Origin: Paraspadella gotoi | Taxonomy: Eukaryota; Animalia; Chaetognatha | Direction: 5' to 3' | Assembly (NCBI GenBank): GCA_051294375.1 | Contig: CM119271.1 | Location: 2,308,677-2,372,676 of the forward strand | DNA: 64,000 bases | In this document: in pieces, positions 9,015 to 55,758 of the stretch | Numbering within the stretch: position 1 is the stretch's first letter | Layout of the letters: every line of letters begins with the position of its first letter | Notes under the pieces: model-generated | The model's database searches: none | What the model was told of the DNA's origin: nothing | What the model saw: the letters and a program-made list of their open reading frames with translations, nothing else | Made by a program: the position numbers and the translations under genes

Positions 9015-10425
9015 TCACCCAAAAGCCTTCTTCAGTCTCCGCCTCAATATCGATCTAAAACTGTCGTTGCACGACTTCTTCATGAACCGAAAGGGCAGAA
9101 CGTTCTTGCCATTGTTGACGCTGATTCGCCAGTCGGTCGGCAGCCGCGAGAGATAATCGCCGAAGTGGGCGTCGACGAAGCGATCGAAAGAGGCGTTGAA
9201 GAAGCGATTGGCGGCGCCGGGATCGGGACAGCGCCGGAGATCGACGCTTTCGGCGAGGTGTTTGCCGAAGTCGTAGAGGAGAGAGACGAGGATCTTTTGC
9301 TCGAGGGTGGCGTAGGTGAAGGCCACGCGAGGCTCGGATCCCAAAAGGGTGCTCAGCTTTTCTCGAAAGAGGTGGTTGACGTCGGCGAGGACGTCGGCGA
9401 CGGGAGGGATGCCGGAGGAGGAGGAGGAAGCCGCGTCGAGGGAGACCATGGCCGAGGAAGAGGTGGAGGGGTGAAAGCCGAAGAGGAAGTTGCCGTCGGG
9501 TTCGCAGCGGGACTCGTCGTCGCCGAGTCCGTCGTCCTCGATAAAGATGCCGCCGGGGTTGTCGTCTACCTCTACGGGGTGGTGGGAGGGGTCGTCGACT
9601 GGTGGGTAAAGAGGGGGAGACGAAAAAGTGGCTGTGAATAAGAGATGTAAAGAATGATCTAAGGACAATTGGTTGTCTTTTTAATATTTATCTATCTTTC
9701 AGTCAATCAATTATTAACACCTATTAAAAGTATTGCTAAAATCGTAAAATAAGACTACTATGAAAACCGTGTCAAAAGATATGAGGAAGGACCTAAAATG
9801 CTACAATATGTAAATGAGATTGAAGAACTCAATTTGAAATGAACTACAAATTATTCTGCTACATTTCGCTTTCGCTCTCGCACACACACAATTTCGAATA
9901 ACTAACCGACGTCAATCTCACGTTTCAGAGAAACGGACGAGGACTCGCTGGGTCGTTTTCGTTTCCCGCCGTCGACCGAGGATTTGGCATCGCACTTGCG
10001 CTTTCGCTTACGGTCGACGAAGGAAGAACAAAAGGCGTTCTCGGGAGAGGGCAGGGCATCGTGGACGATCAAGTTCATGCTCATGTCGGGAACTGGAGAA
10101 CGTAAGAAGTTAATAAAGTCAATCTCTCTATCTCTCTCGGGCTCTCTAACCAACCTTGATGTTTTTCCGTCACCGATGACGCCGTCACGTCCACCTCCAG
10201 CTCCACATCCGTCCCCAGCGGGTGAAACTCTCCGCCAGCATAGGCGTCGCAAAGATGGCGACTTCCGCAAAACTTGCGTCCCTCCTGGGTCTCTACGAGA
10301 ACGAAGATGTTGGATTCGGTGAGCGAGCTCAACTTGACGGCCGCTTCCATGAGCACGGCCACGAAAGTTTTTTCCATCGCGTGGAGTTGATTGAGAAGGG
10401 TCAGGAGACTCTCCTGGGACGACAT
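9015..10425 (-). CDS. MADS-like family member F; exons 10155-10425, 9907-10092, 9015-9631
   Basis: N-terminus MSSQESLLTLLNQLHAMEKTFVAVLMEAAVKLSSLTESNIFVLVETQEGRKFCGSRHLCDAY. GT-AG junctions keep frame. C-domain ...QKILVSLLYDFGKHLA...FDRFVD...FMKKSCNDSFRSILRRR. Confidence 0.85.
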
Positions 10426-10598
10426 GGTCCAAGGGAAGAGACGGTCTTTCTAGATGATCATTAAATAACTGAGTAATATTTTTAAAAATGTACGTAGATT
10501 ATGCAAATATGCATACAAATAAATTAATCGATTGAAAAAAATAATAATTAAAAGCGAAAAATAGAGATTCGGAATTCAAAACCCGGAAAAGCGCGACG

Positions 10599-11648
10599 TC
10601 ACTCGAGCCCGATCTCCAGCGTTCCCACCATACCGCCTTTCGTCTCTTTCTTGACCCGCCGTCTGAGTATCACCCGAAAGTAATCGTTGCAAGTTTTCTT
10701 GATGAAGAGCGAGGGTTTCCCCGTTCTCTTGTTGCCGAACTTAACCTTCGTGTTTCTCGGCACTTTGGCCAAAAATCCGGCAAAGTAAGTCTCGGCGAAC
10801 CTGTCGAAGCAGCGATGGTAGAAGGCGTTGATGTAGGGGGCGGTGACGCCGAACTCCAGCGTCACGTGATGGGCCAGGTGCTTGGCGTAGTCGTAGAGCA
10901 CAGAGAGGAGTAGCTTTTGCTCCCCGGAGGCGTGGGTGAACGCGAGCACGGGATCCTGCTCCAGCACGGCGCGAAGTTTCTCCTGAAAGACAGGGCCGAT
11001 CTCCGCGGGAAGTTTAGAGGCGAGCGCGACCTCGTGGGAGAGTTGGCCGAGGAGCTCTTCCTCGACGAGGGACTCGCGGTGGTCGAGACGGGTCCCCATT
11101 ACTTCACCGGCCGCGGTAGAAGGGTCCGTACCGACTGCCACTGCGGTGAAGGCGTCGAATCCCCCATAGACGGCGGCGAGGTCTTCGACGTCGTCGGGGA
11201 CCGACCCGAAGTCCGTGTCGTCAAAGCCTCGAATCTCGACGACGGGTTCCATCTTAACCGAAGACGCCGAGGATTTCTTGGCAACCACGTCGCCTTCACC
11301 GTCGTATCCGAGTTTTCGTTTCCGTCGAGACCGAGAGGAGGCGGTGGAGGAAGCGACGACAGATTCGTATCCCATCTCACAATCACGAGGCAACTCTTCC
11401 TCCTCCTCCTCTCCGTCAAAGATCTTTTCCCGGACGACGACGCCGGGATCAACTTCGAGCTGGACGTCGTCGCCACGAGGGCGGAGGACGCCGCTCAAGT
11501 AGGCGTCGCACAACTCGGCGCTTCCGACGAACCGACGCCCGGCCGAAGTGTCGATCAGGAGAAAGAGGCCGGCGTCGGTGAGGGAGAGGAGTTTGACGAC
11601 CGTTTCCACGGCGATGGAGAGGATGGAAGACTCGAACGAAGGTTCCAT
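10599..11648 (-). CDS. MADS-like family member E; intronless, 349 aa
   Basis: Single ORF. N-terminus ETVVKLLSLTDAGLFLLIDTSAGRRFVGSAELCDAY. The C-domain closely resembles member F (EQKLLLSVLYDYAKHLA...FDRFAE...FIKKTCNDYFRVILRRR). Confidence 0.85.
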   Translation of the reverse strand: MEPSFESSILSIAVETVVKLLSLTDAGLFLLIDTSAGRRFVGSAELCDAYLSGVLRPRGDDVQLEVDPGVVVREKIFDGEEEEEELPRDCEMGYESVVASSTASSRSRRKRKLGYDGEGDVVAKKSSASSVKMEPVVEIRGFDDTDFGSVPDDVEDLAAVYGGFDAFTAVAVGTDPSTAAGEVMGTRLDHRESLVEEELLGQLSHEVALASKLPAEIGPVFQEKLRAVLEQDPVLAFTHASGEQKLLLSVLYDYAKHLAHHVTLEFGVTAPYINAFYHRCFDRFAETYFAGFLAKVPRNTKVKFGNKRTGKPSLFIKKTCNDYFRVILRRRVKKETKGGMVGTLEIGLE

Positions 11649-11955
11649 GACTGAAAAAGGTGGAAAGAGAAGAGAAGAGAAGAGAAGAGAAGAGAAGGGA
11701 AGACAAGAGAATCAAGCAAAAAGTTTGGAATTTTAAATAAATTGAAATTATTTCAAAATCACAAAATTAAGTAATCCATATTCAAAAGTTTTCAATAGAA
11801 TAATATTCATCATTTCACAGTATATCTTTTAGCAAGTTTTAAACCAAGTCAATGAGCTCAATTCCGCATAAATACCCTATAAATTCATGCCGAAATATTA
11901 GGAATACAAAAAACATGCGAGACGCCTAAAAAAATCTGGAGAGAGAAACTCAGGG

Positions 11956-13253
11956 TCAAGTTTTTCTGCCTTTAAAAGAACTGTACAAGTATTTCCTAGC
12001 TATGCTCTTCATGTAAGCCACGGCCGAGCTGTTGTCCCGGCCGGTCTTGACGGTGATGGGGCTGGTGACGATGTGGCGCAAGTTGACGGAGAACCACTTG
12101 TCGAAATTGTCCATGAGCAGCTGTTTGGAGCGAAAGTCCTTGGGCGAGTCGATTCCGAGCCCCAGACAAAGTTGGAGCGTCTCTTTGGACAGATCGTAGA
12201 TGACGCTGTTGAGAACTTTGGAGCCGACGCCGTCCTTTTGGAGGACGTCGTCGGGACTCATGGCGCCGAGGGCCTTCATCTTCTCGACCGTCTTGGGCGG
12301 AATGGGAATGAACTTGGGGGGGGAAACGTTTTATTAATTAATTCATTTCAAATATATTTTAGGTTAGGTTTTCACCTATTAATAATTTAATAGCTCTATT
12401 AATTGTGAGGTTTTTTGGTGCATTGGGGTTTGGGGAGAGCGATATAGATTTGTAACACTGAGAATTTTTAAAAAAAGCTGATCTTAAAAATCATCCCGCT
12501 CAGCCCCTCCCATTAACTCACCCTGCTCCCCGCGAGTCCGTCCTCAGGTTGCTGCACGGGGCTAATCCGACACCCGTCCTCGATCATCCCCGGAAAGAGC
12601 GTCCCGAATGAGAAGGAGGCGTCGTCGTCCAAAGGCCCGACGACTCCCTCTCCGGCCAGCGGCTCGTGTCTCGCGTCGACGGAGGAGTCGAGGGGAGTCT
12701 GCATGTAGACGACGCCGACGTCGTCGTCGTCGTCTATCGCCTCGACGATCTCTTCCTTGAGACGATGATCGACGGCGGAAGACGAAGAAAATTCGACGCC
12801 GGGATCCCCGCTTTCTTTTCGCCGTTTGGCTTTGGACGGCGCTGGAAAGTCAGAGTCGAGACTGGAGCGCTTTCCGGATCCGCCGGGAAGGCGGCGGGCG
12901 GGAGGGTAATTTTGGATGCAAAGAGCCGAGCTTATCGGAGAGTCGTCGTCGTCGTCGATCGCGACGGCGGCGCCAACGTCGACGCCGCCGACTTGTTGAC
13001 GGAGAGCGCTGACGCCGAGATCGACTTGGCACTCGATGTCGGTCGGCGCGGGGGCGAGGCCGGCCGTCTTGAAGCGTTCGCAAAGGTGGCGCTTGCCAGA
13101 ATATTTTCGGCCCTGAGGAGTCTCGACGAGGATGAAGATGCCGACGTCCGTGAGGGCGGAAATCTTCGTCGCCGCCTCCAGCAGGATGTCGGAGAAAGCC
13201 GTCTCCAAGTGCTGGAGGTGGTTGACGAGGCCGAAGAGGTTGTGAGAGGACAT
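11956..13253 (-). CDS. MADS-like family member D; exons 12522-13253 and 11956-12312
   Basis: N-terminus MSSHNLFGLVNHLQHLETAFSDILLEAATKISALTDVGIFILVETPQGRKYSGKRHLCERF. Phase-0 GT-AG intron. C-domain KVLNSVIYDLSKE...LGIDSPKDFRSK...FDKWFSVNL...YMKSIARK. Confidence 0.85.
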
Positions 13254-14796
13254 TTTCTCTGTTTCGTTATTTTTCGTATTTATTAACTAAATAAAGAAAA
13301 AAATAGTGATGGGCAGTTAGAAAAATATTTTTCGGATTTCATTTTTTATATTAATTACGAATAAAAGTGTAAAAACGATTGAATGTTTTAAAAAATAAAT
13401 TAAGCTAGACTCGATTGCGGAGAAAAACTAAACTAATACTGATTCTAGATTCTAGGCTATGATTGATAATGGTATAACAGAGTGGACTCATTTCCTCAGG
13501 GGCAAAAATGAATCGGTTTGCATACCATGCAATTTTCATCGCGCGCCAAATATGAGTATTGGCAATGCGGTCGATTTAAATAATTGAAAATTGTAAACAT
13601 TAATTCTAAGTTCTAAGTATGGCACAGATAATAGCCCGTAAAACAATGATAGAGCTAGAGACAGTTAAGATTTGAATATGTAATTACAAAATATAAATAA
13701 ACCAACAATTGCAGTTACAGCAAATTTAGCTTATGTTCTTCACTTGACAGCTCGAGGCCACGCGAAAAGGGTGTTAGAGGGAGAATGTTGTGGGCGATGC
13801 CGGCGGGCGCAGGACGGGCTTGAGAAGCACGAGACCCTCTAACGCGTTGACCACAAATAATATGCATCGGTAAACACTAAACAATGAGTCCTTTAGATGA
13901 TCTTCTTCACAAAAGGGAACTGCATTCAGTTGGGTTATGAACAAATATTAGTCATCAACTGATTAATGATCTATATTTCTATGTTCTACATTCTATTCCA
14001 CCTTTGTAAAAGTAAGGAAGCCATCTACGTAAACAGTATTTAAAATATCAGGCATTGTTTATTGTGTTTAAGAATTTGTAAACTTATGTTAAATACTAAA
14101 TAAGCGAAATCATCATTCGTCTTTAACCGAAAAACTGAATGTGTGTTTAAGAATTTATTTGAAGTGAATAAAACCCGATACAGTATTTAAGTAACTTAAA
14201 TCTCGAAAATAAATTATAATAAAATATTGAATCTGCTACACTAATGCAAATAATAAAAAATTTAAGCAGTACATATATATTTTTTTAATAGTTTCGCTCG
14301 GATTAGTAAGTTTAACCTACATTATATTTTAACATACAATTCTAATTTCTTTTTAAAAGACTAGTCGGGAAAAGCACGATTGTTTGAGCAAATCTTTTTA
14401 TAATTAGTTAACACTGATTATTAACGGTCTGAGTCACGAAAAACAGTTGTAACTGTTCACAGATTAAAATTACAAAGCTTCACTAAAAACAGATGCAAGT
14501 TGCAACTGTTTACAGAGTAAAATTGCAAAGCTGCATTCGTACGTATTATCTTTTATCTTTCAAGTCCAACAATTTGGTTGACCGTGCAGAGTTTAACAAG
14601 TGAAAATAATAAAATTAAGATTCAAGCAAAATGGCTTGGATACACAACTCATAAAACGGTACAAAAGGTGTAAAAATGTAAATCAAATAAAAAGACAATG
14701 AGATCAAACAGTATACGTAATTGCGAGTATTCTAAAAAAAAGCTCTATAAATGTAAAAAAAGCACTTGAGTACTAATAAATTAAATTCAAATTGAC

Positions 14797-17492
14797 TTAG
14801 AGAGGAAGTTCCCATCGATGTTTCGATTCCATTTCTGAAAGGATAGGAACAAAAATCCCTAATCAGTTTTTTTTTTAATCAGCCAAGTTTTCCAGAATGC
14901 TTTGCCTTACCGCAAGATTTATGGACGACCTCGCTTCTCCCGTTGCTCGTTTCCTCTTCCCAAAATCCGGTATCGAAACGTTCCAATTCGTTCATTTCCG
15001 GTTCTTAGGCAAAACAAAAAAAATAATCATCATCATCATCATCGTCACCATCTTTGCTGAAATCTTGAACTCCAACATCTCTAACCTTTATCGTCTTCAG
15101 AAGAAGTGGAAGAAAATAACAAAACTTCCGCTCCGTTTTCTTCCTCGATGCCGTTTTCAAAGACGCCTTCATTGCGCGACGCCGCCGGTACTGGTTCCAT
15201 GCGTCCAGAGTCCACGCGTTCGACCACACGCGACACAGGCTTGCTGGTGTTTGGGCGAAAACGCCCAGTTCGACGAACTTCCGTCGTCGAAACGTCATCT
15301 TCTTCCAAGTTGTCTGCGACGTCCGGACTTCGTTCGGAAGTCCCACGCTCCATGGCGCGCGTCTCATTCGATGGCGGGGGCGAAGTGCCTCTTTCGACGG
15401 AAGTGCGACGCGGCGACACAGAGACCGCGGCTTCCGATGCGCTGTCTTCGTCAGCGGCGGCAGTGAAGGTGGTCATGATGGCGCTGTGGGAGGTAATACC
15501 CGATCGAGAACATTGAGAATGAGGTAAAGGTGCGCGGGGATGGCGAGTCGATCGTGGGTGAGCGGGTTGAGGATGAGCGCGGGAACAAGAGTTCGATGGC
15601 GGCGTGCGAGAACTTTGGGAGTGAGATTTAAGATCAAGAGATTTCAAATGAGGGGTTTGACGCCGAGTTTGAGCAGGTGGATGACGATCAACGCGGGATC
15701 GTGGATCAGAACGTTTTTCGACAGAAAGCTCATTTGAGACGGGCACCGACAACGCCCCGCCAAAACGTTCCGGGCCACGAATAAGGGAACGTTCTGGCTG
15801 TAGGGGAGGTCGGCACGAGCGCCGTTCAGGATCTGGAAAAGACCGTGTCTTCACTATTTTCCTCCTTCCGGCCCCAGGGGACGCGATCGCCGAACCGGCC
15901 GAGGCAAAGTTCGTGGCGCTGTCAAATCGATATCTGGGTTCAGACGGGGTTAATAAGTTCGAAGGCCGAGATGTCGCAATTTGGGCACGGTCGCGTCGGC
16001 GATCCCGACGGAAAGGGACGGTGCCGTCAAAATCGGCGTCGATCGTGAAGGATCGAGTCAATGATGTCGCCCTATCCGCCCGTCGCGCCGAGGAATTCCG
16101 CGGAAGGGAGCATGGATCAAGCCGTCGGCCCTCGCCCATACCAACACTTTTATCTTTCCGCGTTGAGCTAAACGATTGAGGCGACGGGCGTTCCATGAAC
16201 CCATCGAGCAGGGACGCGTCATCATCATGTCGTCGGGTTCCGGAGTGGATCGGCATGACGCCACGTCGATCTCCTTTAGTTCCCTCGGGAGTGACGGCGG
16301 GAGTCGCGGGCGCTGAGAGGGAAGGCGGATATGGACGCGGAGCCTCTTTACCGGAACGATGACGGTATCTCCTCGAACTGTCGTCCTCGTCATCATCGCC
16401 GAGAAAGAAAAGCGTGGAAGGGCGGGATCTCGCCGCGACCTCCTCGGTCGGCTCCAATTCCTCCGGCCACGGGGACGACGCCGCGCGATTTCGACCGCGT
16501 CGCGGAAAAACGGCGACGTCGCTTTGATCTCGTCGGTCCGACCGACAACAGACGTCGGTAATTTCAGTAGGGGAGGGAACTCGGCGTCGATCGTCGGGCA
16601 CGCGGGTCAAGGGCGCTTTGACGAGAGTGACGTCGGCGTCGTCGGGAAATGGGACGCGATGAAATCCGCGGGGGAGAGAGTGGAAAGAGGAGAAGGATTG
16701 AGAATTGGGAAAAGTGAGAGATGATATGACTGTTGCTGGAGTTACGGGGCTGAGGTCGTCGCGGTTGTCACCTTTCTCTCCCGACTCTCTCTCCATCCTA
16801 CACCAATTCCTCGCCTCTTTCGCCAACAACTTTTCTCCTTTCGACAACACCGCCTCCACGTCCTCTCCCCTACCCCTCCACCCCAAACGACACGCCAGCA
16901 ACGCCCGGTCGACGACCACGCCGACTCGGTCGTCCACGTCTCCCGCCTCAGAGGAAGCGACTTCCTCGATATCGCCTAAAAACAGAAAGATCATTTGTTT
17001 TCCACAAGCCTCATTTCAAAACTCATTCGCATAATACGTTATACATGACTACCCTGTTATGTAACCCGTCTCCAACACATATATATGAACTCCAACGCCT
17101 CACCATTTTTTAAGCGCTTTCAAACATACTAAGTGGGACAGAAAAACTTTCCGCCAACCAAGTGACTTGGTTGCTGCGCGAGCAAACGCACTAAAAAGTT
17201 CCTTTAAGAATGATAACATTGTATGAGTGGAATTCGTGTCAACGGTCACTTAGAAACTCATTATGATAATTGATAATTGATTCTCGGCTATTTTTCGATT
17301 CTTCCTCACAAAAGATCCTCCTCAGTCCTCACCTTGATCCGCATCGTCGCCGGCGCCGCCGTAATGACGACAAAGGCAACAGAGGAAGGTGAGCAGAATT
17401 CCGAGAAATGAGAAGACGATGACGGAGACGATGAGGATCTCGATGGCGCCGAAACCCGGCTGGCAGTCGACGGCGTCCGAGGCGCAGACCAT
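14797..17492 (-). CDS. Single-pass (type III-like) membrane protein with a long disordered Arg/Ser/Pro-rich cytoplasmic tail; exons 17333-17492, 15086-16975, about 14911-15003 and about 14797-14834
   Basis: Exon 1, which is not in the ORF track, reads MVCASDAVDCQPGFGAIEILIVSVIVFSFLGILLTFLCCLCRHYGG. It splices in frame into the 637-aa ORF, and two small terminal exons end ...EMESKHRWELPL*. Confidence 0.7.
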
Positions 17493-17792
17493 GACAAGGG
17501 CGGGACGGTCATGTCATGAGGTTGAAGTAAGAATAAGATGTCCGTTTTGTTTGTTTTTTTTTGCGGGGGCGGCGCCGGATAGGGTTGCGCGGAGGCAAAT
17601 CGAGGATTAATATTTTTTTTTCGGCTTAAGGCAAAAAAATGTTTTTAATTGTTAAAGAGATCACTTGAGGCGAGGCAGCCTGACCTGATATTTAATATTG
17701 GTATCAGGTCTCCGACTCTGAAAAATTAAAAATCCAAGAGCGGAAACGGGTTTAACTGATTTAAATACTGTATGAATGGATTAAAGGCGTAT

Positions 17793-20700: not shown

Positions 20701-21084
20701 CCGACGCACCTTGCTCTTTCCCTTCCTCGCTCTCTTCCTAGAGTCTCTCGTCCCATTTAACCGCGAGGAGACAAAGACCGAGACCCGCCCCGATTTTGAG
20801 AGGACGAAGAGTCTCCGCTCGTCGTCGTTCTTCCGCGGACAAGAGACTCGAGCGTCGGCGACGGCGCCGACGCAGCGCAGGCTGAGCGCGTGATCGAGTT
20901 CGGCGTCGTCGCCGCCGCCGGGTCGAAGTTCGAAGACGTTGACGAAGCGGGAAGAAGCGGCGAGGAGAAAGCGGTTGGAATGGGAGGAAAGGACGGGAGA
21001 TTGTAAGGGATTGTCGTCGTCGTCATCGTCGTCCTCGACGGGCAGTTGCGCGATAAAGCGAGAGTCTGTTCCGGTCGGAAGCAT
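17793..21084 (-). CDS. FAAP100-like (Fanconi anaemia core complex-associated protein 100), divergent, multi-exon
   Basis: Beta-rich N-terminal region, then a coiled segment (LQDILSSAETMAERRREIRETSAALNETLENLVVC), then LLRNESDFVFGRGWSWHL and ...TLDFLDITR. This order parallels my recollection of FAAP100 (LTSLNEAMNV, LENSSSFSLDQGWTLC, TVDMLQCLR). Confidence 0.55.
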
Positions 21085-35204: not shown

Positions 35205-36680
35205 CTAAGTTGTACATCCGACCGACCATTCCAAACACTTGGCGACTTCCGTCCCGTTAGTCTTTCGGGACGACAACGATGCCGTCGCCGCCGGCGAAGC
35301 GGAATATCTCGCCAGCGCCGCCTCCACCTCGGCCGGCGTCAGGCGCTTGACCTTGAGGATCCGCTTGGCGACGCAGACGAAATTGGTCCTCGAGTAATCC
35401 CACGGCTTGAAGTCGGGATAGGAGTCGGCGTAGACGCTTTCGAGTTCGGGATGGTCGCGGAAGATGGCGGAGAGGCGAGCGCGGAGGAACTGCTTGGTGT
35501 CGCTGTGTACGGAAAGGCAGCCGGCGCGAAGAAGAGTCACGTATTCGGTGGCAATGAGTTTGGAGACGTCGTAGAAAGTGCTGTGCAGTCAAAGTTTTAA
35601 ATTTTGTAGGTCTTAACAACTTCAAACATTTCCTTTTATCAGTCGCTCATTAATATTATTATTTCCATTATGTCATATCACATGGAGATCGAAGCAGCAT
35701 CCCAGGATAAAAAAAACGTCAATAATATAAATGTTAAATTTAAATTTTAAAGATCCTTAATTCTTCACCTCTTAATAATTTTCCTCGCGATTTCATTTTC
35801 GGTGACGGGAAAAACGGAATCGTTTTTGTAGTGAACGCAGACGTCGATCTTGGCCTTGAGCGACGGCGGCGCCGGAAAAGGCGCCTCTGCGATTTCTGCT
35901 ATTGAGGCGTCGACCTCCCCCGCCGCTCCGATCGCGAACGGATTGGAGTAAGAGTCCATCCGGCGAGAGGAGGAGCGTCCCAAAGGCGCCGGGGGCCCCA
36001 TTGACGCCGCTGCGGCGATCGTATCTACAGTTGGAGGGAGGACATGGTTTAAGAAGGGGGCGTCGCGGTCACCGGCGATCGAGTCGTCGACGAAACAATC
36101 GCCGTTCTCGAGGATGACGGCGTCGTCTTCCTCGTCCTCACGTCCATCGTTTTCTGGAAGTTCGATCACGACGGAAGAATTGTCCCCGACGAAGGGTTTG
36201 ACGTCGTCGTCGGCGGGGAGAGGCGGTGCCACGCGCGCAATCTTGACCGCCGAATCGAGGGCGTGATCGCGGCGGCGCTTGCGCGGAGAGGGTGCCGGAG
36301 GTTGAGGAGGGGCGACCAAACCGATTGGTTGGCCGTAACCGCTACGGAACGGGCGGAGGGAAGTGACGTTGGGATCGACCTGGAGTTCGAGTTCGAGTCC
36401 GGAGGGAACTGAAAAGGGGTGGACCAAAGTTATGGGCGAGTACATAGGTAAATCTGAACCATTTTAATATAAATTTACCCAATCGCCCGTCAATGTAGGC
36501 GTCGCACAGTTGCCTCTTTCCTGCGAATCTCCGCCCCTCCTGCGTGTCGACGATCATGAAGAAACCGGCGTCGGTGACGAGAGCCAGCTTTGACGCCGCC
36601 TCCATCAAGATGGTCGTGATCGAAGCCTCCAGTGCCTGGAGTTGATTCATCAGGGAATGCAACGGCTGACCCGTTGCCAT
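35205..36680 (-). CDS. MADS-like family member C; exons 36479-36680, 35769-36408, 35205-35580
   Basis: N-terminus MATGQPLHSLMNQLQALEASITTILMEAASKLALVTDAGFFMIVDTQEGRRFAGKRQLCDAY. Junctions keep frame (RL|VPSG; IIKS|TFYDVSK). The C-domain is more divergent. Confidence 0.8.
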
Positions 36681-36966
36681 TTTGTCGTTTCGATCGCGGC
36701 GGACAACGATGATTAGTTTGTAATTTATTAGAAAAGCCTCAGCTATAACAATACGACTAGAAGAGAAGGAAAAAAATAAAAGAATCAAGCGAGCAACAAC
36801 TCGGCGTTTGTTCGGATCAAGTCTACTTGAAATCCAGAACGACCGATTCAAATGTAGAATTTGATTGCACGAGATGATATAAATTATAGTGTCTTCGTAA
36901 TCGGATAACTAAATAATAACTGGATGAGAGGAACCGTTTCCTCCCGAAACGACCCTTCATCTAACA

Positions 36967-38294
36967 TCATTTCCCCTTGTCCTTTAAAATGGAGCTCATA
37001 ACTTTGTAGAAATGCACGCGGGCATTTTGCTTCATGAATCCCAAGGGCGATCTGGAGAGGTTCTCGAGCCGCTTGTCTGAATTGGCCAAGTGAGCCAGGT
37101 TGTCGGCGATCCACTTGTCGAAGCAAGCGGAGAAGATTATCTTGGACTCGTGATCTTTGGGACTGGCCAGACCGAGACCGGCGCAGGTCTGGGCGATCGA
37201 CCTACCGATCTCGTACATGACTGAATTGAGAAGGCGGTGCCCGACGGTTCCTTTCTCGAAAATCTCGCGCGGCGGGAGAGTCTGCAAGGCCTCCAGCTTG
37301 TCGGCGGAGACGTGCATCAAGAGCGCGTCGTCGAGTTTGCTCAGATCGAGGGTGGATGGAGCGGAGGCGCCGGAGGCTGCGTCGGGAGGTAGGCGGGAAA
37401 GGCAAAGTTCTGAGGCGAAAGAGGCGAGGCCGTTGTGAGATTCGTCCGGTCGGCCTTCCAACGGTTGGTTCATCCACGGAATGATGTCCATGGAGACGTC
37501 GTTCGGAATGTCGAACCCATTGCAGGAGCGGTTGGCGACTGCGTCTAGGAGGAAATTAAACAATTTTTAAACAATTTAAACAATTTTCACTTAAAAAATA
37601 AATCCTTTAATAATGCAAAAACACTTTTTACATCATTAGTCTCACCATTAGGCACGATCCCCCCATCCGCGCCCACATCCGCGACGCTCTTTTCGAATCC
37701 CGATCGTCTCGATCGATTTTCCTCGTTCTCCGCGGCAATCGGCGCTCTTTCCTTTTTCACGTCAATCTCGGAAAACGGCGTCGACGCGAACACCGGCGCT
37801 TCCTGCAGCAGGGGCGCCTCGAGTCCCGGCCGAGCGGAACGCCCTCTCTCCGGCGACGGCCACCACCGCGCCCGTTTCCCGCCGTCAAAGCGGGCAAGGC
37901 CGAGACTCCGTCCCCGCTTCCGATGACCGCCCAACATGGGCGGGGCGAAAAAGTCGTTGGCGAGAGGGTCCTGCGGTGAAGGGTGATGAGCAGGCGTCGC
38001 GGGACGCCGCAGCGGATCCGCGGGCTCCCGTCGCTCTTGCAAGGCGCTAACGGACGGGTTGATTTCGAACTCGACGTCGCTTCCTGTCGGCGCCAAGAGG
38101 CCGGCGGCGTAGGCGTCGCAGAGATGGCGCTTTCCGGAGAACTTGCGTCCTTCTCCTGTTTCGACGAGGACGAAGATGTTGGCGTCGGTAAGGGCGGAGA
38201 GCTTCATTGCCGCCTCCATGAGGATCGAGGTGAAGGAAAGTTCCATGCTTTGCAATTGCGAGACGAGGCCGAGCAGACTGTGGGACGATGCCAT
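36967..38294 (-). CDS. MADS-like family member B; exons 37646-38294 and 36967-37544
   Basis: N-terminus MASSHSLLGLVSQLQSMELSFTSILMEAAMKLSALTDANIFVLVETGEGRKFSGKRHLCDAY. C-domain HRLLNSVMYEIGRSIA...LGLASPKDHESK...FDKWIADNL...LGFMKQNARVHF. Confidence 0.87.
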
Positions 38295-46451: not shown

Positions 46452-46939
46452 TTTTGATAAGGTGGTCGAAAGAATGGGGTTTTAAGAAAAAAGGGGGATT
46501 GGTCTAAACCAGATGGGGGTTTAAAGATTTTTGTTTTTCCCCAAACGAAGTTTTTCACGTTGGGTAATAAGAAAGGCGGCGATTTGCCGGATTTTCGGTC
46601 ATTTCGTCTTTATGGCGGCGACAACGATGAGCGCCGAATTGCACTAAAAAAAAAAACAAAGAACAAGTGGATGAAGACAACGAAGCAGCGGATGGAAAAT
46701 TTCGAGTGCATTTAATGATTTTCTGAGGCAACGGTCTCCTCTCAATGTGGATGGAAAAGTGGCTGTCCGATCAAAATTACTTTCCGCTATAAAGAATAAT
46801 TCGTTAAATTGTTAAAACGAAAAACTGGTATAACTAAGATTAAAAAGATGTATAGAATTCGCCGAGTCGGGTGAGGAGGGGAATAACGGGAATGAACGGT
46901 TTTCTCTTTTTTCTTTGCTCTTTCTTCAAAAATTTCCGT

Positions 46940-49346
46940 CTAGAACGCAAAACGCGTTCGAATGTCTTCGAGCTTCTTCGACACCTCCGCCGGCGTCCGG
47001 TCGAGATCCTCGGCGATGCTCTTCTGTTTGGCCAGCTCGAGCGAGTTGTACTGTTCGCAGAGGTCACCGTCGATGACGTTCTTGACGGGGAAATAGCAGG
47101 ACCGGTAGGAGAGGTGATCCCGACCGCAGAGCGGAGGATGGTCGCCGCGCAAGTGCATCTCCAGGTGTTGGAAGAAGTCGTGGTCCTCGTGAGACGTGAA
47201 GGGGACGAGCATGCCGACGCTGCCGGAGAAGGTGGTGTAGACGAGGGATTCGGAGCCGCCGGGGATGAGGGTGGCCTTTTGTAGGGAGGAGATGACTTCG
47301 CCCACGTGGAAGTTGACCATCACTTCAGACTTTTGAGAGGCCCCGCTGAGGACGCCTTTTTCCCAGAAGGCCTGGAGAAAAGAATAATGGTTTAAAGCTT
47401 CGCGTTATAGCCAATTTACCAAAGAGATGATAATTGAACAAAACTAACAAAACCTCCGTTCACTCACCTTATTTCCCGAAGGATCCTCCGATTCCACGTC
47501 GTCGTTGCAATCAGACGGCAGACGAACCAAACACACGTTGCCGAACTTGTCGGCCCCGGCGACGGTGTCGTAGTCCATAACCGCCGAGGTGGTCAGCCAG
47601 CGAGGGTTGGTGTCGTCGGCGAAGATAGAAAGCTGGTTTTCTTTGGGCCGGTAGCGCATAAAGTGGAATGACTCTTGGACGTCGGAGACGAAGACTCGAA
47701 GGCCGATCGTGTCGATCTTGACGATGAAGTTGGGGATCGATTTGGACTCGCACTTGCGGAGGAGCTTCTTCTTGCCCAGCTCATAGAGGCGGAGGAGGTT
47801 GCCGACGCCGACGAGGAGCTTCCCGTTGAAAGGAGCCATGGCGCCGGGGATGTCGTCGATGGCCGTCTTGTGGAGAAACTCGAGTCGCTCGCCCGAGTCT
47901 CCAGAGACCAAGTAGACGTGGAGGAAACCGCCGGAGCAGAGACGCGTCTGGAGCTGGTAGTCCTTGGCCGTGCCGACGATGAGGAACTTGAGGTCGCCGC
48001 GAGAGGCGAAGCGACAGAAAGTCGCTGAGAGCGCAGCCTCGTTCTGCTCCAGCTCGAGGGTTTGGAGAGTGCGGCCCGTGATGGGATCCTAGAACGGTTC
48101 GAAAAAAAGAGTCAATTACACAAATGAAAAAATATATTTATAGTGAACGGATTAAAAACACTGAAGCCTATATAAGCGCTCACCTGCAGTCTAACTTGCG
48201 AGGCCCACATGCCCCAGCCGGCTTTGGGAGCGCCGAAGACCTCTTCCGGCAGCTTCTCGTTAAGGAAGGCTGCGGCCATCTCCGCCGCCAACTCTTGCTC
48301 TTCCTCACCCGCCGCCTCCACCATCTCCTCCGCCATCTGTTGCTTCCTTTGCTCCTTGGTGGCGTCGGTGTAGGCGTTGTGATCCGTCTCAATGACGGCA
48401 ATGTTGTTGGTGTCTTGGTCGATGACAAATCTGGATTAATGAAATAACAGATGAAAAATCCGCTGGAGAACGGACCAATGGGATGTTTGAATCACTGACC
48501 GTCTGGGCGTGAATTTCAAAGGATGCGCGATCTGATTAAAGACGGCACCCAACTTCTCCAGCGCGAGAATCCTCAACGTGTTGGTCGAAATGGCGACGAT
48601 GCCTTCCGGACACTGTTCCGAGGCGAAGCCGGAGGCGTACTCGAGCGACTCGTATGAGAGGGGCGTCAAGTGGAAACGGTTCTGGTAAGTGTAAGAGAGC
48701 CAGGTCCGACTTGACATGGCCAGAACGGAGTCGTTGCCCTGCATGCGGACGCGGAAGAGTTTGACCGGCTTGGATCCCAAATAACGGGTGCGAGTGTCCG
48801 AGAGATCGCCGGTCACCGTGTCTGGAAGCAAAAAAAAAAATTTTAGTAAGATTCTTGTGATAATCAAATCATCTCCTTTATCCATCGATATCCTCACCCA
48901 AAACAGTTCTGAGAAGGACTCCGTTTTGCAGGCCGATGTTGAGATTGAGGCCTCCTTTGGTGTAGCCGCTGGTGACTTCGTTGGTGGAGGTGTCAGCGCT
49001 GCCCATCTCCACAATACAGAGGGACTCGGCCACGGCCGGCAAAGCCTTGGAGCAAGGAGTTATTATTTCTCAATAATGTGACTCGAATAAAGTCAACATT
49101 AAACAAGATCCGTCGTCATGGAAACTCTTCCCACCTGCATGGAGAGCGGCGACAAGCAGTCGTTAGGATCGAGGGAAATGATTCTGACGGTGTTGTCGGC
49201 CAAACCGACGGCGAGGAAGCGCGAACGCTGCTCGCCCGAAGGAACCGAGGCGAGGCCCATGCAGATCACCTAAGTGAGAATAGAATTCATTAACTGACGA
49301 ACGAAATTTGTTACAAACAGCAATAGCGACTTGATTAGTAATCATA

Positions 49347-49385
<39 letters not shown>

Positions 49386-49870
49386 GATTACCTCGGCCGT
49401 CATTTCTTTCCTCTCCGTGTACTCGTTGAGTTGTCCAGTAGGATCCATCTCAAAATAGACGAGTTCTCCTCCAGAGAGAGCGATGACCACTTGGCGCTGG
49501 TTCACCGCGCAGCGATTGATCGTTTTCTTTCCCGGGGTTTTCCATTCGTTTACTCGCTGGGTGAAAAATATCGTGATCCTCGATGGAACTGCTAGTAAAA
49601 TATATAGTAAAATATCTTTTAATTAACCCCCTCACCTTGTCCGCCCGAATGTGACGAATTCCATCGGGGTAGATTTGAATGAGAGCGTCGTCGCCCAACT
49701 GGGAGCAAGACAAAGTGGGCGTGGTTCCGAGGAAACCGGAATCCGTCACTTCCTCGACCGTCTCACCGATGGACAAAACCTGTAAGAAGTCAATAGTATT
49801 TTGATTATTACAAATATATAATTATATGAAAATTAATGCGATTCAAAACGAGATTTTTTAAAATAAAATT

Positions 49871-49924
<54 letters not shown>

Positions 49925-50224
49925 CTTCCAGTTCGAACAAGGGTTTTGAAAAAGGACAATGTTTAATATTTTAATATTTTAAGACACTTTACCAGCGTGG
50001 CGTTGACGAAAGACACGATGATGTAGGCGTCGAACTCGTCGTCCATTCGCCGCTTAACTGTCCAGACGGCGTTGGGGTTACCGGGAAGTTCGGAGACGGC
50101 CATCTCGGAGACTTCGAGACCGTGGCGGAGAACGCGGAGGGAAGAGCGGGGACCGCGGCCGCAGACAGCGTAGAGCTTAAAGATAGGATGAAGCAAAATT
50201 GTTGATTGACAAAATCTTCACACA

Positions 50225-50265
<41 letters not shown>

Positions 50266-51862
50266 CCTCCACCTGCGGAGTATCCTCGTTCGCCAGATCG
50301 GCGATCTGACAATGCATGATGGGCGAGAGCGAGTCGAGCTCGTCCACGAGGACCAAGTTCTTGAGCGGACGCGGGGCGAAGAAAAAGGTGTCTCCTTCTT
50401 CCAGCGGCATGGCGGAGGAGAACTCGGGCTCGTCGTCGTCGTCACCCAGGTGGGCGATTTGGTAGAGATAGTGGTTGCCGAACTCGCAGGCGACAAAGAG
50501 GAAGCCTGAGATAAATTCACATTATGCACATACTTAAATACTTGATTTATTCTTGTAGACTCGGAACCAAATCATAAAAAAAAAAACCTCACCCCAAACT
50601 CACCCGTCTTCAGCACGCACATCGACGTGGCCACTGGCACCGTATCGAAGTATTTCAGCCTGATCTCCGTCACCATGTCCTCGTCCGTCTCCAGGGTGAT
50701 CTTAAAGATGTCGCCCTGTTCCGTCTGCGCCAAGAAAAAGAACATGGACTTGGTCTTGTGGGTGGCGGAACAGACGAATATCATTCCCCGCTCGGGGTCG
50801 TCGAGATCGTTGCGCCGGCGCGGAATAGGCGACCGGATGTCCGGTTGATCGCCAAAGTTCTTGTAGGTGACGTAGTTTTCCGAGCAGATGAGAACGCCGG
50901 AGGGACCGTCGTTTCCACCTTTTTTAAAAGAGGATTGAAATATTAAGGAACCACGTAAGAGGGGGAAAAAAAACAGTTTCAATGGAAAACGTCACGAGCG
51001 TTGGCCAGCTTAATTTTTATCAAAAGTACGATATTTTCGATTTTTTTTTTTTACTCGCAGAGTTGCCCTATAATTTGAATTGATTCGCCTGATGCCAGAC
51101 CACAGAGCCCTCACTCACCTGGAACCGAAATCAAAAAGTTGCCATGTTCCTCCAGCGGCTCCGAGTATTTCCTGACGACGTGATTCAGGCCGAGATCGAG
51201 TTCGTAGAAGGTGAGCGCCTGCGAGGTGTTGGCCGCGGCTTCGCCCGACGGGTCGGCGTCGGAGTCTTCGTAGTCGATCTCGAGGCAGGCGAAGGTGGGG
51301 TTCTCGAAGCCCACATCTACGCCCACGATGTGGTAGACGATCGTGTTGGACTTGTGCGCCTCGAGCGGCGAGGAGATGGTGAGGCGAGCGGTCGCGTCGC
51401 GGTTCAGGATGTAGACCTTGTAGTAAGTTTACAATGTTTTTTCTAAAAAATCGTAATGATGATTCGGCTTGTATTACAGTTAAGTCTATCGAAGGTAGAA
51501 CTACAGAATTAATTAAAAAGAAATTCCTAAGTTACCAGCTTTTGTTTTTCTGAGGCGGCGATCATGAGCGCTCGGCCTTTGGGATCTGTGCAGAGGAACT
51601 GTCCGGGGACGATTCGGCGACATCCCGATTTCCCAAAAGTCTCTTGATGAATCTTTAAAAAATAGGGACAAATTAACAAAATTTATTTGATTAAATTATT
51701 GTAAAGAAACCAAGGTAAACAATATTAATTAAGGAGGAACCTTATCAAATGAATTTTTCGCCCCCAAATATTCGAGGATAGATATTCGTCCCGAATCCGT
51801 TCCGACGATGATGAAGTCTTTGTTTCCTCCTGTCAGGAATATGATGGAAGTCTCAGGATCAG

Positions 51863-51910
<48 letters not shown>

Positions 51911-52126
51911 ACCAGTCAGCCTGAATCCCTGCAAGGATCTGATCACGCCGAAAATCTCCACGGAGAGAACAGTGTAAACCTTGCCGGTGTTGGGGTCGGG
52001 TCGCAGCAGCTCCAGTAGCTTGCCGCGCGAGACGACGATCTCCTGCTGCTTGGAGCCGCTGAAGTTGCCGTGGATGGCGTGGGTGATGCCAGTGGCTCGT
52101 TGGAGCGTCAAGTGGTAGAGATACAT
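46940..52126 (-). CDS. SF3B3: Splicing factor 3B subunit 3 (SAP130), multi-exon
   Basis: Near-identical to the conserved SF3B3 sequence: [24 protein letters not shown]...; [31 protein letters not shown]; ...[22 protein letters not shown]. Confidence 0.98.
49346..49385. repeat. (CAT)n microsatellite in an SF3B3 intron
   Basis: Direct observation. Confidence 0.9.
49875..49922. repeat. (GA)n microsatellite in an SF3B3 intron; further (GA/TC)n tracts at about 40500-40522, 50228-50262, 51865-51905 and 59290-59312
   Basis: Direct observation. Confidence 0.9.
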
Positions 52127-53759
52127 GACTGCAGTATTGTTTTCTGATAGTTTTTTTTTCTGTTGAAAATCTTACATGTGAAAAAAAACGAGGAAAAAAA
52201 ATAAATAGCCTAATAGGGCATTAAAACATTGATAAAAATAAAAGAAAAACTGGCGAAGTCATAAAGGCTGGAATGTTGTTGTTGTTGTTATTCGTTTTTA
52301 GTTGTGTGTAAAACCATTTAAACAATGGCTAAAAAAAATGCCACGAAGTAATGACCCATGAATATCTCTTTAACCCATCCACAACACCCCATTAACCCCC
52401 CCCCCCAAAAAAAAAAATCCCTTTTCAAAGTCGCCAACGAAACGGCCAAAGTAAAAAAGCCGAGTTTCCCATCGAAAGACGGAAAAGGAAGAAGACATCG
52501 AGAAAAAAAAGGCGAAACCCGCGGGCAGAGATAATATCAATAAAATGTCGTGACCTCGATTCTCATGTGAAAAGGCTCCCCCCGCGAGCAAATAACCGGC
52601 GGAGACAGTTTCTTGGCAACGGGACTTTTCGTCATTCTCGTCGTCGTCGTCGTTGTGGCTTAACGAGGGAGGAAGGGCTTATTATGTTTTATTTCGGAAG
52701 AGGGGGAGAGAAGTCGGGAATTGGGGGGGGGGTGTCGGTGGTGAAAGATAATTCTCAATGTCGTAAAAGTCGCAAAGCGTCGCCGACTGTCGCCGGATTA
52801 ATTTAAAGAGTTCGCATAACTGGGTCCCTAGAGAAATCAAATGTAAATGTCTGGAAAAAAGGAAAGAGACTAAATGAGGTATGACTATGACAAATAAAAG
52901 TAGTTCATGCGTTTCAAAATTAAACAAAAAAAAACCAGTACTCCAATAACTTTGATTAGAAAATAATCAAGGACAAGAACAAAACACAATCGATGTAAAT
53001 ATAAATATATTGCATATAACCAGATATTGTTTTGCAGGAATGAAAAAAACAAAAACCGCCTCTGGAGACAGAAGCACGAGAGATAAGAGTCCTGATTGGG
53101 ATACATATTTCCTGCTGTGTTAGCTTGCTAACTTGACACGTAAAAACATTGAAAGTAAATCCTGAGGTTTTTCTTTTTTTGCAAGAAAAGCAAAAGGTAT
53201 GCTATGATGGAGTTTCAAGTTTTAGAAAAAAAATATACGGCATCAATCAACAGTTAGATCGAAATGAATCCTGATTGCAGAATAATAAAAAAAAACAAAA
53301 CAAAACGAAAATGTACAGAACATGTTGGATAGAAAGGCTGGTAAATTCCTGGTTCTTGCATTCAAAGCTAACTATATTTACACGATCCACAAAGGAATGT
53401 TAAGTTGCGGTTTATAAATAGCTAAACAGAAATAAGTTCACTGAATCGCAATAACGTAGTCAACAACTAAACTACTGGAAAAAGAAAAATGAGGATAGTT
53501 CGATAAAAAAAACCGCAGGTCGCTATGAGAATAATAACGCGAGGTTATTAATATTAATAATAATACTCCAGACGTTGAAAGAGGATAATTCCGCGAGAGA
53601 TCCGAAAGAGCCATTCTTCTGCCATCGTCACGGCTTTCTGATCTTCTCGGATTTCTAGGCAGAGTTTTTTTTTTTTGTTATTCTTCCCTTATGCTTCAGT
53701 TTTGTTTCGTTTCGTTTGTTTTTTTTTTTACTGGGAAATTGGTTGTTTTTTTTTTTCTT

Positions 53760-55758
53760 TCACCACGACAGCACCCCGCCAGCCAGCCCGGCGCCGCCGC
53801 CGCCGTTCCCATGAAGGAACGCCTCGGCCATTCTCCGCTGATGCTCGTTCTGCCTTAGCTGTTTGAGTCTCTTGCTGCGCTGGGCGAACCCTGACCTCGC
53901 GGACATGCGCATGAAGCCAAGGAGGGTGAGCGTTTGCCCGCTCTCCGGCCGCCCGTGAGGCAGGGCCTTGTGGAAGACTCGTTTCAGGTTTTCGAACTGG
54001 GAGACCCAGATCTCGAAGTTTTTGAAGAAAAATTCGCGGGACTGGAGTTCGTCCATGTCCTCGGGTTTGGCCTCGGCCAAGGCTGGAAGGAGATAAGGGG
54101 GAGAGAAAAAGTCAAGGAAAATTATTAGGATAGGGAAAGTGAAATGTGAAGATGAAAAAAAAAATAATGAAAAATGCAGTCCATTTGTTTAATAACGGGA
54201 CTCAAGTTTTATTCAGATTCGAGAGCATTTAAGCTCTCTTTTTCCCAGCAGCAATCAGCCTTTCATATAAATAAAGAGACTGTTGACTGTTAAGTGACAT
54301 TAATATACTATAATAATATACTCACAAGTATAAATCGTTTGATTGGGAAAAAGCAAAAAGCAAAAACGAAACTAACATTCTTTTCAACCTCCCTAAGTCC
54401 CAATTTAACCTTTTCCGAAATCGTAGCACAACGAAGTGGAGAGCCGATTCTCCGGAGTTCCCTTGACGCAGGCGTTTTCGCCGGCGATGCACTTGAGGGT
54501 CTGGATTTTCTGGGCCGAGAGGTTTTGGTTGAGCAGGGCCATGAGTTCGGCGTCGACAACGCCGCCGCCGACGCCGAGGCCGTTGTCGATGAGATCGGCG
54601 CCGGAAAGGTTGTAGGCGTCGAAGGCGCCGGCGCTGGTTTCATCGATGGAGGCGGCGGCGGCGTCGAAGGCCGATTCCCATCCCAGGATCTCCATGGGGC
54701 CGGCGGTGCTGGAATGAGGTGGAGGGGGCGCGACGGAGGATGAAGATGAGGTTGATGCGAGAGGAGGGGCGTTGCCGGCGCCGCCAATGCCGTTGCACTT
54801 AGAGGCGGGAAGATCGTTGATGATCTCCGCGATGTCGCTGTCGATTTCGCCCTCTTCCTCAGAGGACTTGATCGGCTAATGTAAAGAGGAGGAAAGGGAT
54901 TATTAACATTAACAAAGTTAACAGAAACAAAAAGCGTTAATATTTCTCTAGACGAAAATACTAAAAGGCATATTAAATTTCGAAAAAAATGGGAAAAGCA
55001 ACAGGGAGCTGGGAGCTTGTTTTATTAAAACTTCGGCGCATAACTTTAGAACAGTAGTTCTATATTTGTTGACATATCTTCCTTACCTCTGTTCTCTCTT
55101 TCTTGATCTCCGTCTCGTCCTTGACGACGACCTCGTCGTCCGCGGAGGCGGAACCGGCGGCGCCCGCCGTGTCGTCTTCGGCTTCCGGCAATTTGGCCAT
55201 TTTCGGAGGCGTCGACGACGACGATTCGGGTATCGAGGGGTTGAGAAGGCGTTTCCTTGTAGGCGGCGAAGGGAAAGGGAAGGCCTGGCGAGCCGTCGAC
55301 GCAGCTGCGGCGGCTACGGCGGCGACGACCGCGCTGCTTCCGCCGTTGTTGTTGTTGTTATTGGTCGAGGAGGAGGTAAAGGAGGTAGAAAAGTTTCTTT
55401 GTGGCTGAGACGATGCCTGATGATGATTGTTGCGTCCCTGAAGATGGTAAGCGTCCGGCGCGGTCGGCATGGCGCCGGGATGATGATGATGCCGTCGGAG
55501 TTGCAACGACGACACGGCCGGATTGACCTCGTACTCGACGTCGTTTCCCGTCGGCGTCAATTGCGCTCGTAGGTAGGCGTCGCAGAGATGGCGTTTGCCG
55601 GAGAACTTGCGTCCTTCTCCGGTCTCGACGAGGACGAATATGTTAGCGTCGGTGAGGGCCGAGAGCTTCATGGCCGCCTCCATGAGGATGGCCGAGAACG
55701 AGGTCTCCATGCTCTGGAGTTGAGAGACGAGACCCAAGAGGCTCTGGGCGGATGCCAT
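53760..55758 (-). CDS. MADS-like family member A; exons 55087-55758, 54410-54875, 53760-54082
   Basis: N-terminus MASAQSLLGLVSQLQSMETSFSAILMEAAMKLSALTDANIFVLVETGEGRKFSGKRHLCDAY. In-frame GT-AG junctions. C-domain KGTPENRLSTSLCYDFGK|ALAE...FFKNFEIWV...LLGFMRMSARSGF. Confidence 0.87.

What the first reader, a model, noticed from the sequence alone, without database searches (positions are those of the whole stretch)
9015..55758. Six-member family with a 'disarmed' MADS-box-like N-terminal domain and a shared unknown C-terminal helical domain
Seen in sequence: six genes (A 53760-55758, B 36967-38294, C 35205-36680, D 11956-13253, E 10599-11648, F 9015-10425) share an about 85-aa N-terminus, consensus SLLxLVxQLQxMExSFxxILMEAAxKLSALTDxxIFVLVETxEGRKFSGKRHLCDAY..L.P.G.DVExEVxP.V. 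Established knowledge: the SRF core IMKKAYELSTLTGTQVLLLVASETG aligns without gaps to LMEAAMKLSALTDANIFVLVETGEG (9/25 identities by hand), with the alpha-I helix and beta-hairpin hydrophobic pattern kept. The basic N-terminal arm (GRVKI) and the RRxTFSKRKxGxxKK residues that contact DNA in SRF/MEF2 are replaced by neutral or acidic residues. Animals normally have only SRF and MEF2 MADS genes. Inference: this is a lineage-specific expansion that reuses the MADS fold purely for homo- or heterodimerisation, much as insects use BTB or ZAD domains. DNA or partner specificity would come from the variable C-terminal domain, or the proteins could act as dominant-negative SRF/MEF2 partners. I do not recognise this architecture as a described family.
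Basis: partly seen in the sequence, partly recalled or inferred. Interest (0 to 1): 0.9.

Follow-up and report, generated by a model that had tools for sequence, protein, structure and literature searches.

The report
MADS-like dimer hub, swappable DNA readers
Six genes in this animal genome belong to a large unnamed protein family whose front end is predicted to be a MADS-type pairing domain without the usual DNA-gripping charges, and whose back end is an unknown helical domain or, in some relatives, a known DNA-binding domain, so the family likely supplies this lineage with its own set of gene regulators.

Summary
Six intact minus-strand paralogs share an ~88-aa N-domain and a ~105-aa helical C-domain; six of eight predicted introns appear as spliced joints in one run. 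The family is far larger: 396 clusters at 50% identity; none of the relatives looked up has an informative name. A MADS fold is likely but not proven. Pfam SRF-TF is the most frequent weak hit (12 of 44, below cutoff). The model has MADS topology and ranks SRF first and NRF1 second among 48,161 chains, at low Z. A homodimer with MADS-like central strand pairing is supported (0.42 against 0.03). Helix I is nearly free of basic residues. New here: seven relatives carry a homeodomain, FLYWCH, MBD, CENP-B/Tc5 or BED domain instead of the helical C-domain, as in BTB- or ZAD-type families. The helical domain is basic, has no fold match, and is probably a new DNA-binding domain (inferred). NRF1 is the precedent for the mechanism. 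The host lineage is unidentified. Verdict: new variant of a known kind.

The parts
53760..55758 (-). Gene A, 486 aa; exons 55758-55087, 54875-54410, 54082-53760; N-domain 55758-55498, C-domain 54518-53847 (split by intron 2)
   Evidence: Spliced model; HMM hits; introns predicted only (not among the joints listed)
36967..38294 (-). Gene B, 408 aa; exons 38294-37646, 37544-36967
   Evidence: joint 37544-37646 in X9, not X7
38031..38294 (-). N-domain of B, the copy that was folded: helix 4-35, strands 41-46 and 49-54, helix 56-63, strands 74-79 and 84-87; predicted MADS-like homodimer
36982..37308 (-). Helical C-domain of B, the copy that was folded; basic last helix; no fold or Pfam match; likely DNA-binding (inferred)
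35205..36680 (-). Gene C, 405 aa; exons 36680-36479, 36408-35769, 35580-35205; most divergent C-domain (35851-35349, spliced)
   Evidence: both joints in X9, not X7
11956..13253 (-). Gene D, 362 aa; exons 13253-12522, 12312-11956; N-domain 13250-12996, C-domain 12285-11965
   Evidence: joint 12312-12522 in X9, not X7
10599..11648 (-). Gene E, 349 aa, single exon; N-domain 11639-11439 lacks the first third of helix I; C-domain 10982-10641
   Evidence: one X9 contig covers 10543-11645
9015..10425 (-). Gene F, 346 aa; exons 10425-10155, 10092-9907, 9598-9015; N-domain 10425-10162, C-domain 9362-9027
   Evidence: both joints in X9, not X7

Best explanation
These six genes belong to a large family that likely encodes modular nuclear transcription factors, in which a predicted MADS-fold N-domain lacking basic residues would serve only to pair two subunits and a separate C-terminal domain would read the DNA. 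Shown: the shared two-domain layout, splicing, purifying selection, the near absence of Lys/Arg in helix I, and known DNA-binding domains in the C-terminal slot of seven relatives. Predicted: MADS topology and a homodimer whose first beta-strands pair antiparallel at the two-fold axis. Inferred: nuclear import through the basic linker cluster, SUMO-type control through the psi-K-x-E motif, DNA binding by the basic last helix of the helical C-domain, and heterodimers between paralogs that combine two DNA readers on flexible linkers, as NRF1 does with two copies of one reader.
For: Fold: AlphaFold2 model pLDDT 86 with helix, beta-hairpin, helix in MADS order (SEP3 layout in PMC8346517). Among 48,161 chains SRF ranks 1 (Z 4.7, rmsd 3.9, 63 aligned), NRF1 2 (Z 3.7, rmsd 3.8, 60), MEF2A 6 (Z 3.4, rmsd 3.6, 56), MEF2D 17; 9 of 11 entries in the second look at Foldseek's matches are MEF2. 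Pfam SRF-TF is hit by 12 of 44 and 8 of 55 members (overlapping sets), next family 1 and 3. Dimer: score 0.42, best of 3 controls 0.03, runs agree in at least 77% of contacts, pLDDT at least 59; best pairs 42-42, 40-44, 39-45 (the mark was reached by 21 of 30 solved pairs and 0 of 23 single chains in microbes, 17 of 29 pairs and 0 of 30 single chains in eukaryotes). Two relatives carry the N-domain twice in tandem (P0104, P0139). Disarming: 149 of 162 members have at most 2 Lys/Arg in positions 1-36, mean net charge -1.2; E27 in 188 of 188. Modularity: of 123 proteins scanned, P0125 homeodomain (E 8.9e-11), P0149 MBD (3.7e-11), P0205 Tc5/CENP-B (2.2e-26), P0119 FLYWCH (2e-4), P0214 BED (1.1e-4), P0147 and P0181 BED/C2H2-like (weak, 0.023 and 0.032); none has the helical domain, and their nearest N-domains include different helical-type subfamilies. 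Nuclear features: basic cluster in the linker in 102 of 110 long members against 19.5 in shuffles; psi-K-x-E in 71 of 110 against 11.7; C-domain net positive in 82 of 85, mean +6, last 25 columns +4.4.
Against: No single MADS test is significant: best Pfam E 0.0061-0.011, far below the cutoff; only 1 of 123 further members hits SRF-TF at E 0.3; family profiles find no MADS protein among PDB sequences at E 10; Foldseek has no hit at E 0.001 and puts MEF2D at rank 36, E 4; Z 4.7 lies below the 7-8 that models without a clear match typically reach. Members are related, so repeated weak hits are not independent. The dimer pass may come from memory of solved MADS dimers (only 1 of 7 eukaryotic pairs without an older solved relative passed), and pLDDT is about 60. 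The helical C-domain resembles no known DNA-binding fold (best Z 7.1, rmsd 4.1, 105 aligned, a translocon subunit). Three of the fusions rest on one contig each and P0149 on two, so assembly chimeras are possible. P0104 and P0139 end in Gly/Tyr/Arg-rich tails, which points to other uses. Nothing was tested in the laboratory.
Confidence: 0.6

Rival explanations
1. The N-domain is a MADS-fold dimer module, but the helical C-domain binds proteins or RNA rather than DNA, and most members act as cofactors or as dominant-negative partners of SRF/MEF2.
For: No DNA-binding fold matches the C-domain; its most conserved residues are mainly hydrophobic or a short K-L...S..Y-D..K patch; helix I and the first strand keep the MADS hydrophobic pattern.
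Against: The same slot holds five kinds of known DNA-binding domain in relatives; the C-domain is basic; the MADS Glu34-Arg24 salt bridge (PMC8346517) cannot form, since those positions are Lys/Arg in 191 of 193 and hydrophobic, never basic, in 186 (register by hand and Pfam match).
Confidence: 0.17
2. Same mechanism, different origin: the family descends from NRF1/Ewg (or a common NRF1-like ancestor), whose MADS-like dimerisation domain already left sequence recognition to a second domain.
For: NRF1 ranks second for the N-domain, within 1 Z unit of SRF; the layout dimer domain, linker, DNA-binding domain is NRF1's.
Against: No NRF1 Pfam family is listed for any of 44, 55 or 123 members scanned, whereas SRF-TF recurs; the nearest Atlas clusters carry SRF-TF on 43-53% of members (scores 0.79-0.80, a lead only).
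Confidence: 0.1
3. The N-domain is an independent alpha/beta dimer module that resembles MADS only by convergence; the BTB/ZAD-like role stands but the MADS link is false.
For: All MADS scores are sub-threshold; the invariant residues (E18, E27, K31, F41, R50, G54, L58) are not the MADS signature; two extra strands follow helix II.
Against: Sequence profile, monomer fold ranking and dimer geometry each point to the same family, over the same residues.
Confidence: 0.1
4. The genes are transposon cargo or active mobile elements.
For: FLYWCH, BED and Tc5/CENP-B domains are typically transposase-derived (established knowledge); the family is multicopy.
Against: No transposase catalytic family in any Pfam scan; no terminal inverted repeats other than low-complexity matches around the genes; dN/dS 0.17 for A vs B; each window gene or gene pair groups with outside relatives; no relative among viral contigs.
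Confidence: 0.03

Closest known systems
SRF / MEF2 / MCM1 MADS-box factors (Pfam PF00319)
   Same: Predicted order helix, beta-hairpin, helix; top fold rank; dimer through the central beta-strands; leucines at the positions matching Leu28 and Leu35.
   Different: No basic N-terminal arm or basic helix I; below the Pfam cutoff; charge pattern of the Glu34-Arg24 pair changed; a separate C-terminal domain; many paralogs rather than about two genes (an acoel genome lists 2, PMC6451197).
NRF1 / Ewg / P3A2
   Same: MADS-like dimerisation domain joined by a flexible linker to a separate DNA-binding domain (PMC10810270); second-ranked fold.
   Different: NRF1's dimer domain still touches the DNA backbone and has extra helices; NRF1 is usually one conserved gene (recalled); no sequence match; here the C-terminal domain is different and exchangeable.
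Insect BTB (tramtrack-type) and ZAD factors, vertebrate SCAN factors (recalled)
   Same: Lineage-expanded N-terminal oligomerisation domain, low-complexity linker with a basic cluster, interchangeable C-terminal DNA-binding domains including FLYWCH, BED and CENP-B-type helix-turn-helix.
   Different: Unrelated N-terminal fold; the commonest partner here is an unclassified helical domain (82 of 104 long relatives), not zinc fingers.

Membership tests
MADS-box (SRF/MEF2) | Match to PF00319 above the curated cutoff | tested here: not met
   B scores 11.5-13.5 bits against 26; best member E 0.0061
MADS-box (SRF/MEF2) | Long helix, beta-hairpin, second helix | tested here: met
   In a predicted model, pLDDT 86; SRF ranks first at Z 4.7, rmsd 3.9, 63 aligned, a low score
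MADS-box (SRF/MEF2) | Dimer with intermolecular four-stranded antiparallel sheet | tested here: inconclusive
   Model supports it, 0.42 against 0.03, strand 39-45 pairs with its mate, but may be from memory and is not a measurement
MADS-box (SRF/MEF2) | Basic N-terminal extension and helix I residues that contact DNA (R3, K4, K5, R15, K23; PMC10178880) | tested here: not met
   The proteins start at about MADS position 4; Lys/Arg in 0 of 123, 4 of 171, 25 of 186, 0 of 186 and 0 of 188 at positions matching 5, 15, 23, 24 and 30
MADS-box (SRF/MEF2) | CArG-box binding | not testable with these tools
   Needs EMSA or SELEX; expected to be absent
NRF1/Ewg | MADS-like dimerisation domain followed by a linker and a separate domain | tested here: met
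NRF1/Ewg | Sequence match to the NRF1 family profile | tested here: not met
   Not listed in Pfam scans of 13, 44, 55, 123 and 13 proteins
NRF1/Ewg | NRF1-type DNA-binding domain fold | tested here: inconclusive
   Not among the 50 rows listed for the C-domain model
BTB/ZAD/SCAN-type modular factors | One N-terminal module joined to several unrelated DNA-binding domains | tested here: met
   Five kinds in 7 of 123 proteins scanned, two of them weak
BTB/ZAD/SCAN-type modular factors | BTB, ZAD or SCAN domain itself | tested here: not met
   No such Pfam hit; a different topology is predicted
DNA transposon | Transposase catalytic domain and terminal inverted repeats | tested here: not met

The most novel reading that the evidence does not exclude
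An unannotated animal lineage has turned a MADS box into a pure dimerisation hub and built on it a repertoire of dozens of transcription factors, most with a DNA-binding fold not yet described and some with captured homeodomain, FLYWCH, BED, MBD or CENP-B readers, so that paralog heterodimers form a combinatorial code: a counterpart of BTB, ZAD and SCAN that arose from a transcription factor's own DNA-binding domain.
Probability: 0.4. Interest if true: 0.85.

Novelty: new variant of a known kind. Interest (0 to 1): 0.68.

Why it matters
Animal MADS genes are regarded as two conserved DNA-binding lineages. A family of hundreds of sequence clusters that keeps the fold, drops the DNA contacts and swaps DNA readers would add a new example of how lineages build private regulator repertoires, supply a candidate new DNA-binding fold, and show a route by which an NRF1-like layout can arise from a MADS box. 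It sits below the Pfam cutoff, so standard transcription-factor inventories would miss it. Each claim can be tested cheaply with two small soluble domains.

Tried and rejected
No whole genome is held, so no genome-wide count was possible. PDB sequence searches with one sequence or four alignments gave no MADS or other meaningful hit. Foldseek gave nothing at E 0.001 for either domain. The C-domain's fold list holds only common helical arrangements; NRF1, BEN or MADF chains are not among the 50 rows, which does not exclude them. Atlas hits for the C-domain are unnamed bacterial clusters with few shared features, rejected as chance. Two metagenome scans and one viral scan found no locus, so synteny and the fusions could not be checked in DNA. 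Twenty cluster look-ups gave no accession and one uninformative name; two short members of the P0104 cluster look unrelated. No run is on record as RNA; X9 is a guess backed by its spliced joints; X10 and X11 gave only short matches. Host placement with MAU2 failed: two unnamed relatives at 91-92%, named animals at 71% or less, and a long branch joining at an unresolved fork in a tree of 38 rows chosen from the 120 listed, with no crustacean, nematode, flatworm or gnathiferan in it. Arrow worms were considered because of operons and many lineage-specific genes; the passages read hold no MADS or SRF mention and nothing ties the window to them. In alignment A8 the first 14 query residues were misaligned to N-domain columns; the rest of the C-domain model is not affected by that stretch. 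The structural aligner placed helix I in a different register from the sequence match, so residue-by-residue equivalences there are uncertain. Three look-ups of earlier findings returned nothing.
Full report
Setting. The window is compact animal DNA with short AT-rich introns. Neighbours with Pfam hits are Deltex, an F5/8 domain gene, MED1 (weak), a somatomedin-B gene, GTF3C1, an RSE1/SF3B3-type gene and MAU2 (9 of 25 segments hit; gene names partly recalled). No genome is held. The MAU2 exon has two unnamed relatives at 91-92% and named animals at 71% or less. In a tree of 38 of the 120 listed rows the two unnamed relatives form a long branch at an unresolved fork. The host is an animal whose lineage I could not name.

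The observation. Six stop-free GT-AG models were built. HMMs made only from outside relatives find exactly six N-domains in the window (E 1e-21 or better; next 1.5) and score all six C-domains (E 2.2e-06 or better). Six of eight introns appear as joints in contigs of run X9 and not in DNA run X7; A's two are unconfirmed (one study; RNA status is a guess). A vs B gives dN 0.139 and dS 0.816. E lacks the start of helix I. The genes are old paralogs: N-domains 32-82% identical, best outside C-domain identities 36-59% for A-E.

Family size. Word-based searches gave 38 longer and 25 short relatives, all from ENA, JGI, Logan or MERC and none from NCBI or UniRef. A profile search of 1.84 billion representatives gave 396 clusters at E 0.001, 244 at 1e-10; only the best 150 were shown, so the weaker 246 are unseen and might include annotated proteins or true MADS factors. 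Of 186 outside proteins, 104 are 280 aa or longer and 82 of these carry the helical C-domain. The 85 proteins with both domains complete fall into 38 groups at 40% C-domain identity. This suggests dozens of subfamilies, but species are mixed and no per-genome count was possible.

Is the N-domain MADS-like? Pfam SRF-TF is hit by B at residues 25-50 and by 12 of 44 and 8 of 55 aligned members, best E 0.011 and 0.0061, never near the cutoff; only 1 of 123 further proteins hits at E 0.3. PDB sequence searches found no MADS protein. The AlphaFold2 model (pLDDT 86) has helix 4-35, strands 41-46 and 49-54, helix 56-63 and two further strands, the order described for SEP3 (PMC8346517, passages). Foldseek finds nothing significant. 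Full alignment to 48,161 chains ranks SRF first (Z 4.7, rmsd 3.9, 63 residues), NRF1 second (3.7, 3.8, 60) tied with an unrelated coiled coil, MEF2A sixth; these Z values are below what unmatched models often reach. In the second look 9 of 11 entries are MEF2. The Atlas lists SRF-TF-bearing clusters first at 0.79-0.80, a level a third of shuffled proteins reach. Two copies fold as a dimer at 0.42 against a best control of 0.03, with runs agreeing in at least 77% of contacts and pLDDT at least 59. Strand 39-45 pairs antiparallel with its mate about residue 42, with contacts also from 25, 28-29 and 55-78. The mark was reached by 21 of 30 solved pairs and 0 of 23 single chains in microbes, and by 17 of 29 pairs (animals 7 of 16; 1 of 7 without an older relative) and 0 of 30 single chains in eukaryotes, so the pass may show likeness to solved MADS dimers rather than binding. 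NRF1 and SRF dimerise through the same kind of sheet (PMC10810270, passages). I put MADS-fold homology near 80%.

Disarming. In 149 of 162 members positions 1-36 hold at most two Lys/Arg, mean net charge -1.2; E18, E27, K31, F41, R50, G54 and L58 are nearly invariant. This does not depend on the register. In the +3 register (Pfam match plus recalled MADS numbering), positions matching the DNA contacts named in PMC10178880 (passages) are almost never basic, Leu28 and Leu35 stay hydrophobic, Glu34 becomes Lys/Arg in 191 of 193 and Arg24 is never basic. Inference: no CArG binding, and an altered interface that should favour pairing within the family over pairing with SRF/MEF2.

The C-terminal slot. 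The helical domain folds confidently (pLDDT 91; helices 18-26, 29-33, 38-60, 69-86, 104-128) and matches nothing in Pfam, PDB or BFVD beyond common bundles. It is net positive in 82 of 85 complete copies, mostly in the last helix. Seven of 123 scanned relatives carry a known DNA-binding domain instead: homeodomain, MBD and Tc5/CENP-B strongly, FLYWCH and BED moderately, two BED/C2H2-like weakly. Their N-domains lie in different parts of the tree; P0149's is 77% identical to that of a helical-type member. The Tc5 fusion has four cluster members from two sources and the P0147 fusion three; P0125, P0119 and P0214 rest on one contig and P0149 on two. The linker holds a basic cluster in 102 of 110 long members (shuffles 19.5, maximum 30) and psi-K-x-E in 71 of 110 (11.7, maximum 24). 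Positional equivalence and charge make DNA binding by the helical domain likely (about 65%), not shown.

Mechanism. Most likely the N-domains pair and present two DNA readers on flexible linkers, and paralogs mix. Layout, splicing, selection, charge loss and domain exchange are shown in sequence; fold and dimer are predicted; nuclear location, DNA binding and heterodimers are inferred. Mobile-element origin is unlikely: no transposase core, no terminal repeats, no viral relatives.

Known or new. It works like NRF1 in layout and like BTB/ZAD/SCAN factors in modularity (the latter recalled). It fails membership of MADS-box, NRF1 and BTB/ZAD on tested features. Nine literature searches listed no paper describing such a family; I saw listings for all and passages of five papers (PMC10810270, PMC12460157, PMC8346517, PMC10178880, PMC6451197), no supplements, where orphan gene families might be tabulated. 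The library lacks most subscription journals. Verdict: real, probably undescribed, a new variant of a known kind; interest 0.68.

Noticed in passing
window:1077-59345: Every gene identified lies on the minus strand, with short gaps between reading frames (E to F 173, GTF3C1 to B 284, B to C 286, D to E 307 bases). All 18 canonical joints listed are minus-strand introns, and one X9 contig runs through B and C. This suggests operon-like transcription with trans-splicing; not shown.
   Followed up: partly
window:11649-11680 and 13287-13310: Strong 3' splice-acceptor-like sites lie 2 bases before E's ATG and about 33 bases before D's, with no upstream coding exon found; candidate trans-splice or 5' UTR intron sites.
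   Followed up: partly
window:9710-9833: A short high-copy repeat inside intron 2 of F: high depth and many loose ends in both runs.
   Followed up: no
window:1-64000: CpG observed/expected is 1.32: no sign of methylation-driven CpG loss, although one family relative carries an MBD.
   Followed up: no
P0104 and P0139 (no locus): Two tandem N-domains followed by repeated short motifs and a Gly/Tyr/Arg-rich tail, with no helical C-domain; possibly an RNA-granule type offshoot.
   Followed up: no
P0207, P0126, P0210 (no locus): Further C-terminal variants without Pfam hits: P0207 ends in a stretch that recalls an RFX-type winged helix (recalled), P0126 has a Cys/His-rich region, P0210 has two helical C-domains.
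   Followed up: partly
window:32107-34841: A gene with a somatomedin-B domain and several hydrophobic segments, probably an adhesion or Methuselah-type receptor (name recalled).
   Followed up: no
window:15008-17015: A 644-codon minus-strand open frame without any Pfam hit.
   Followed up: no
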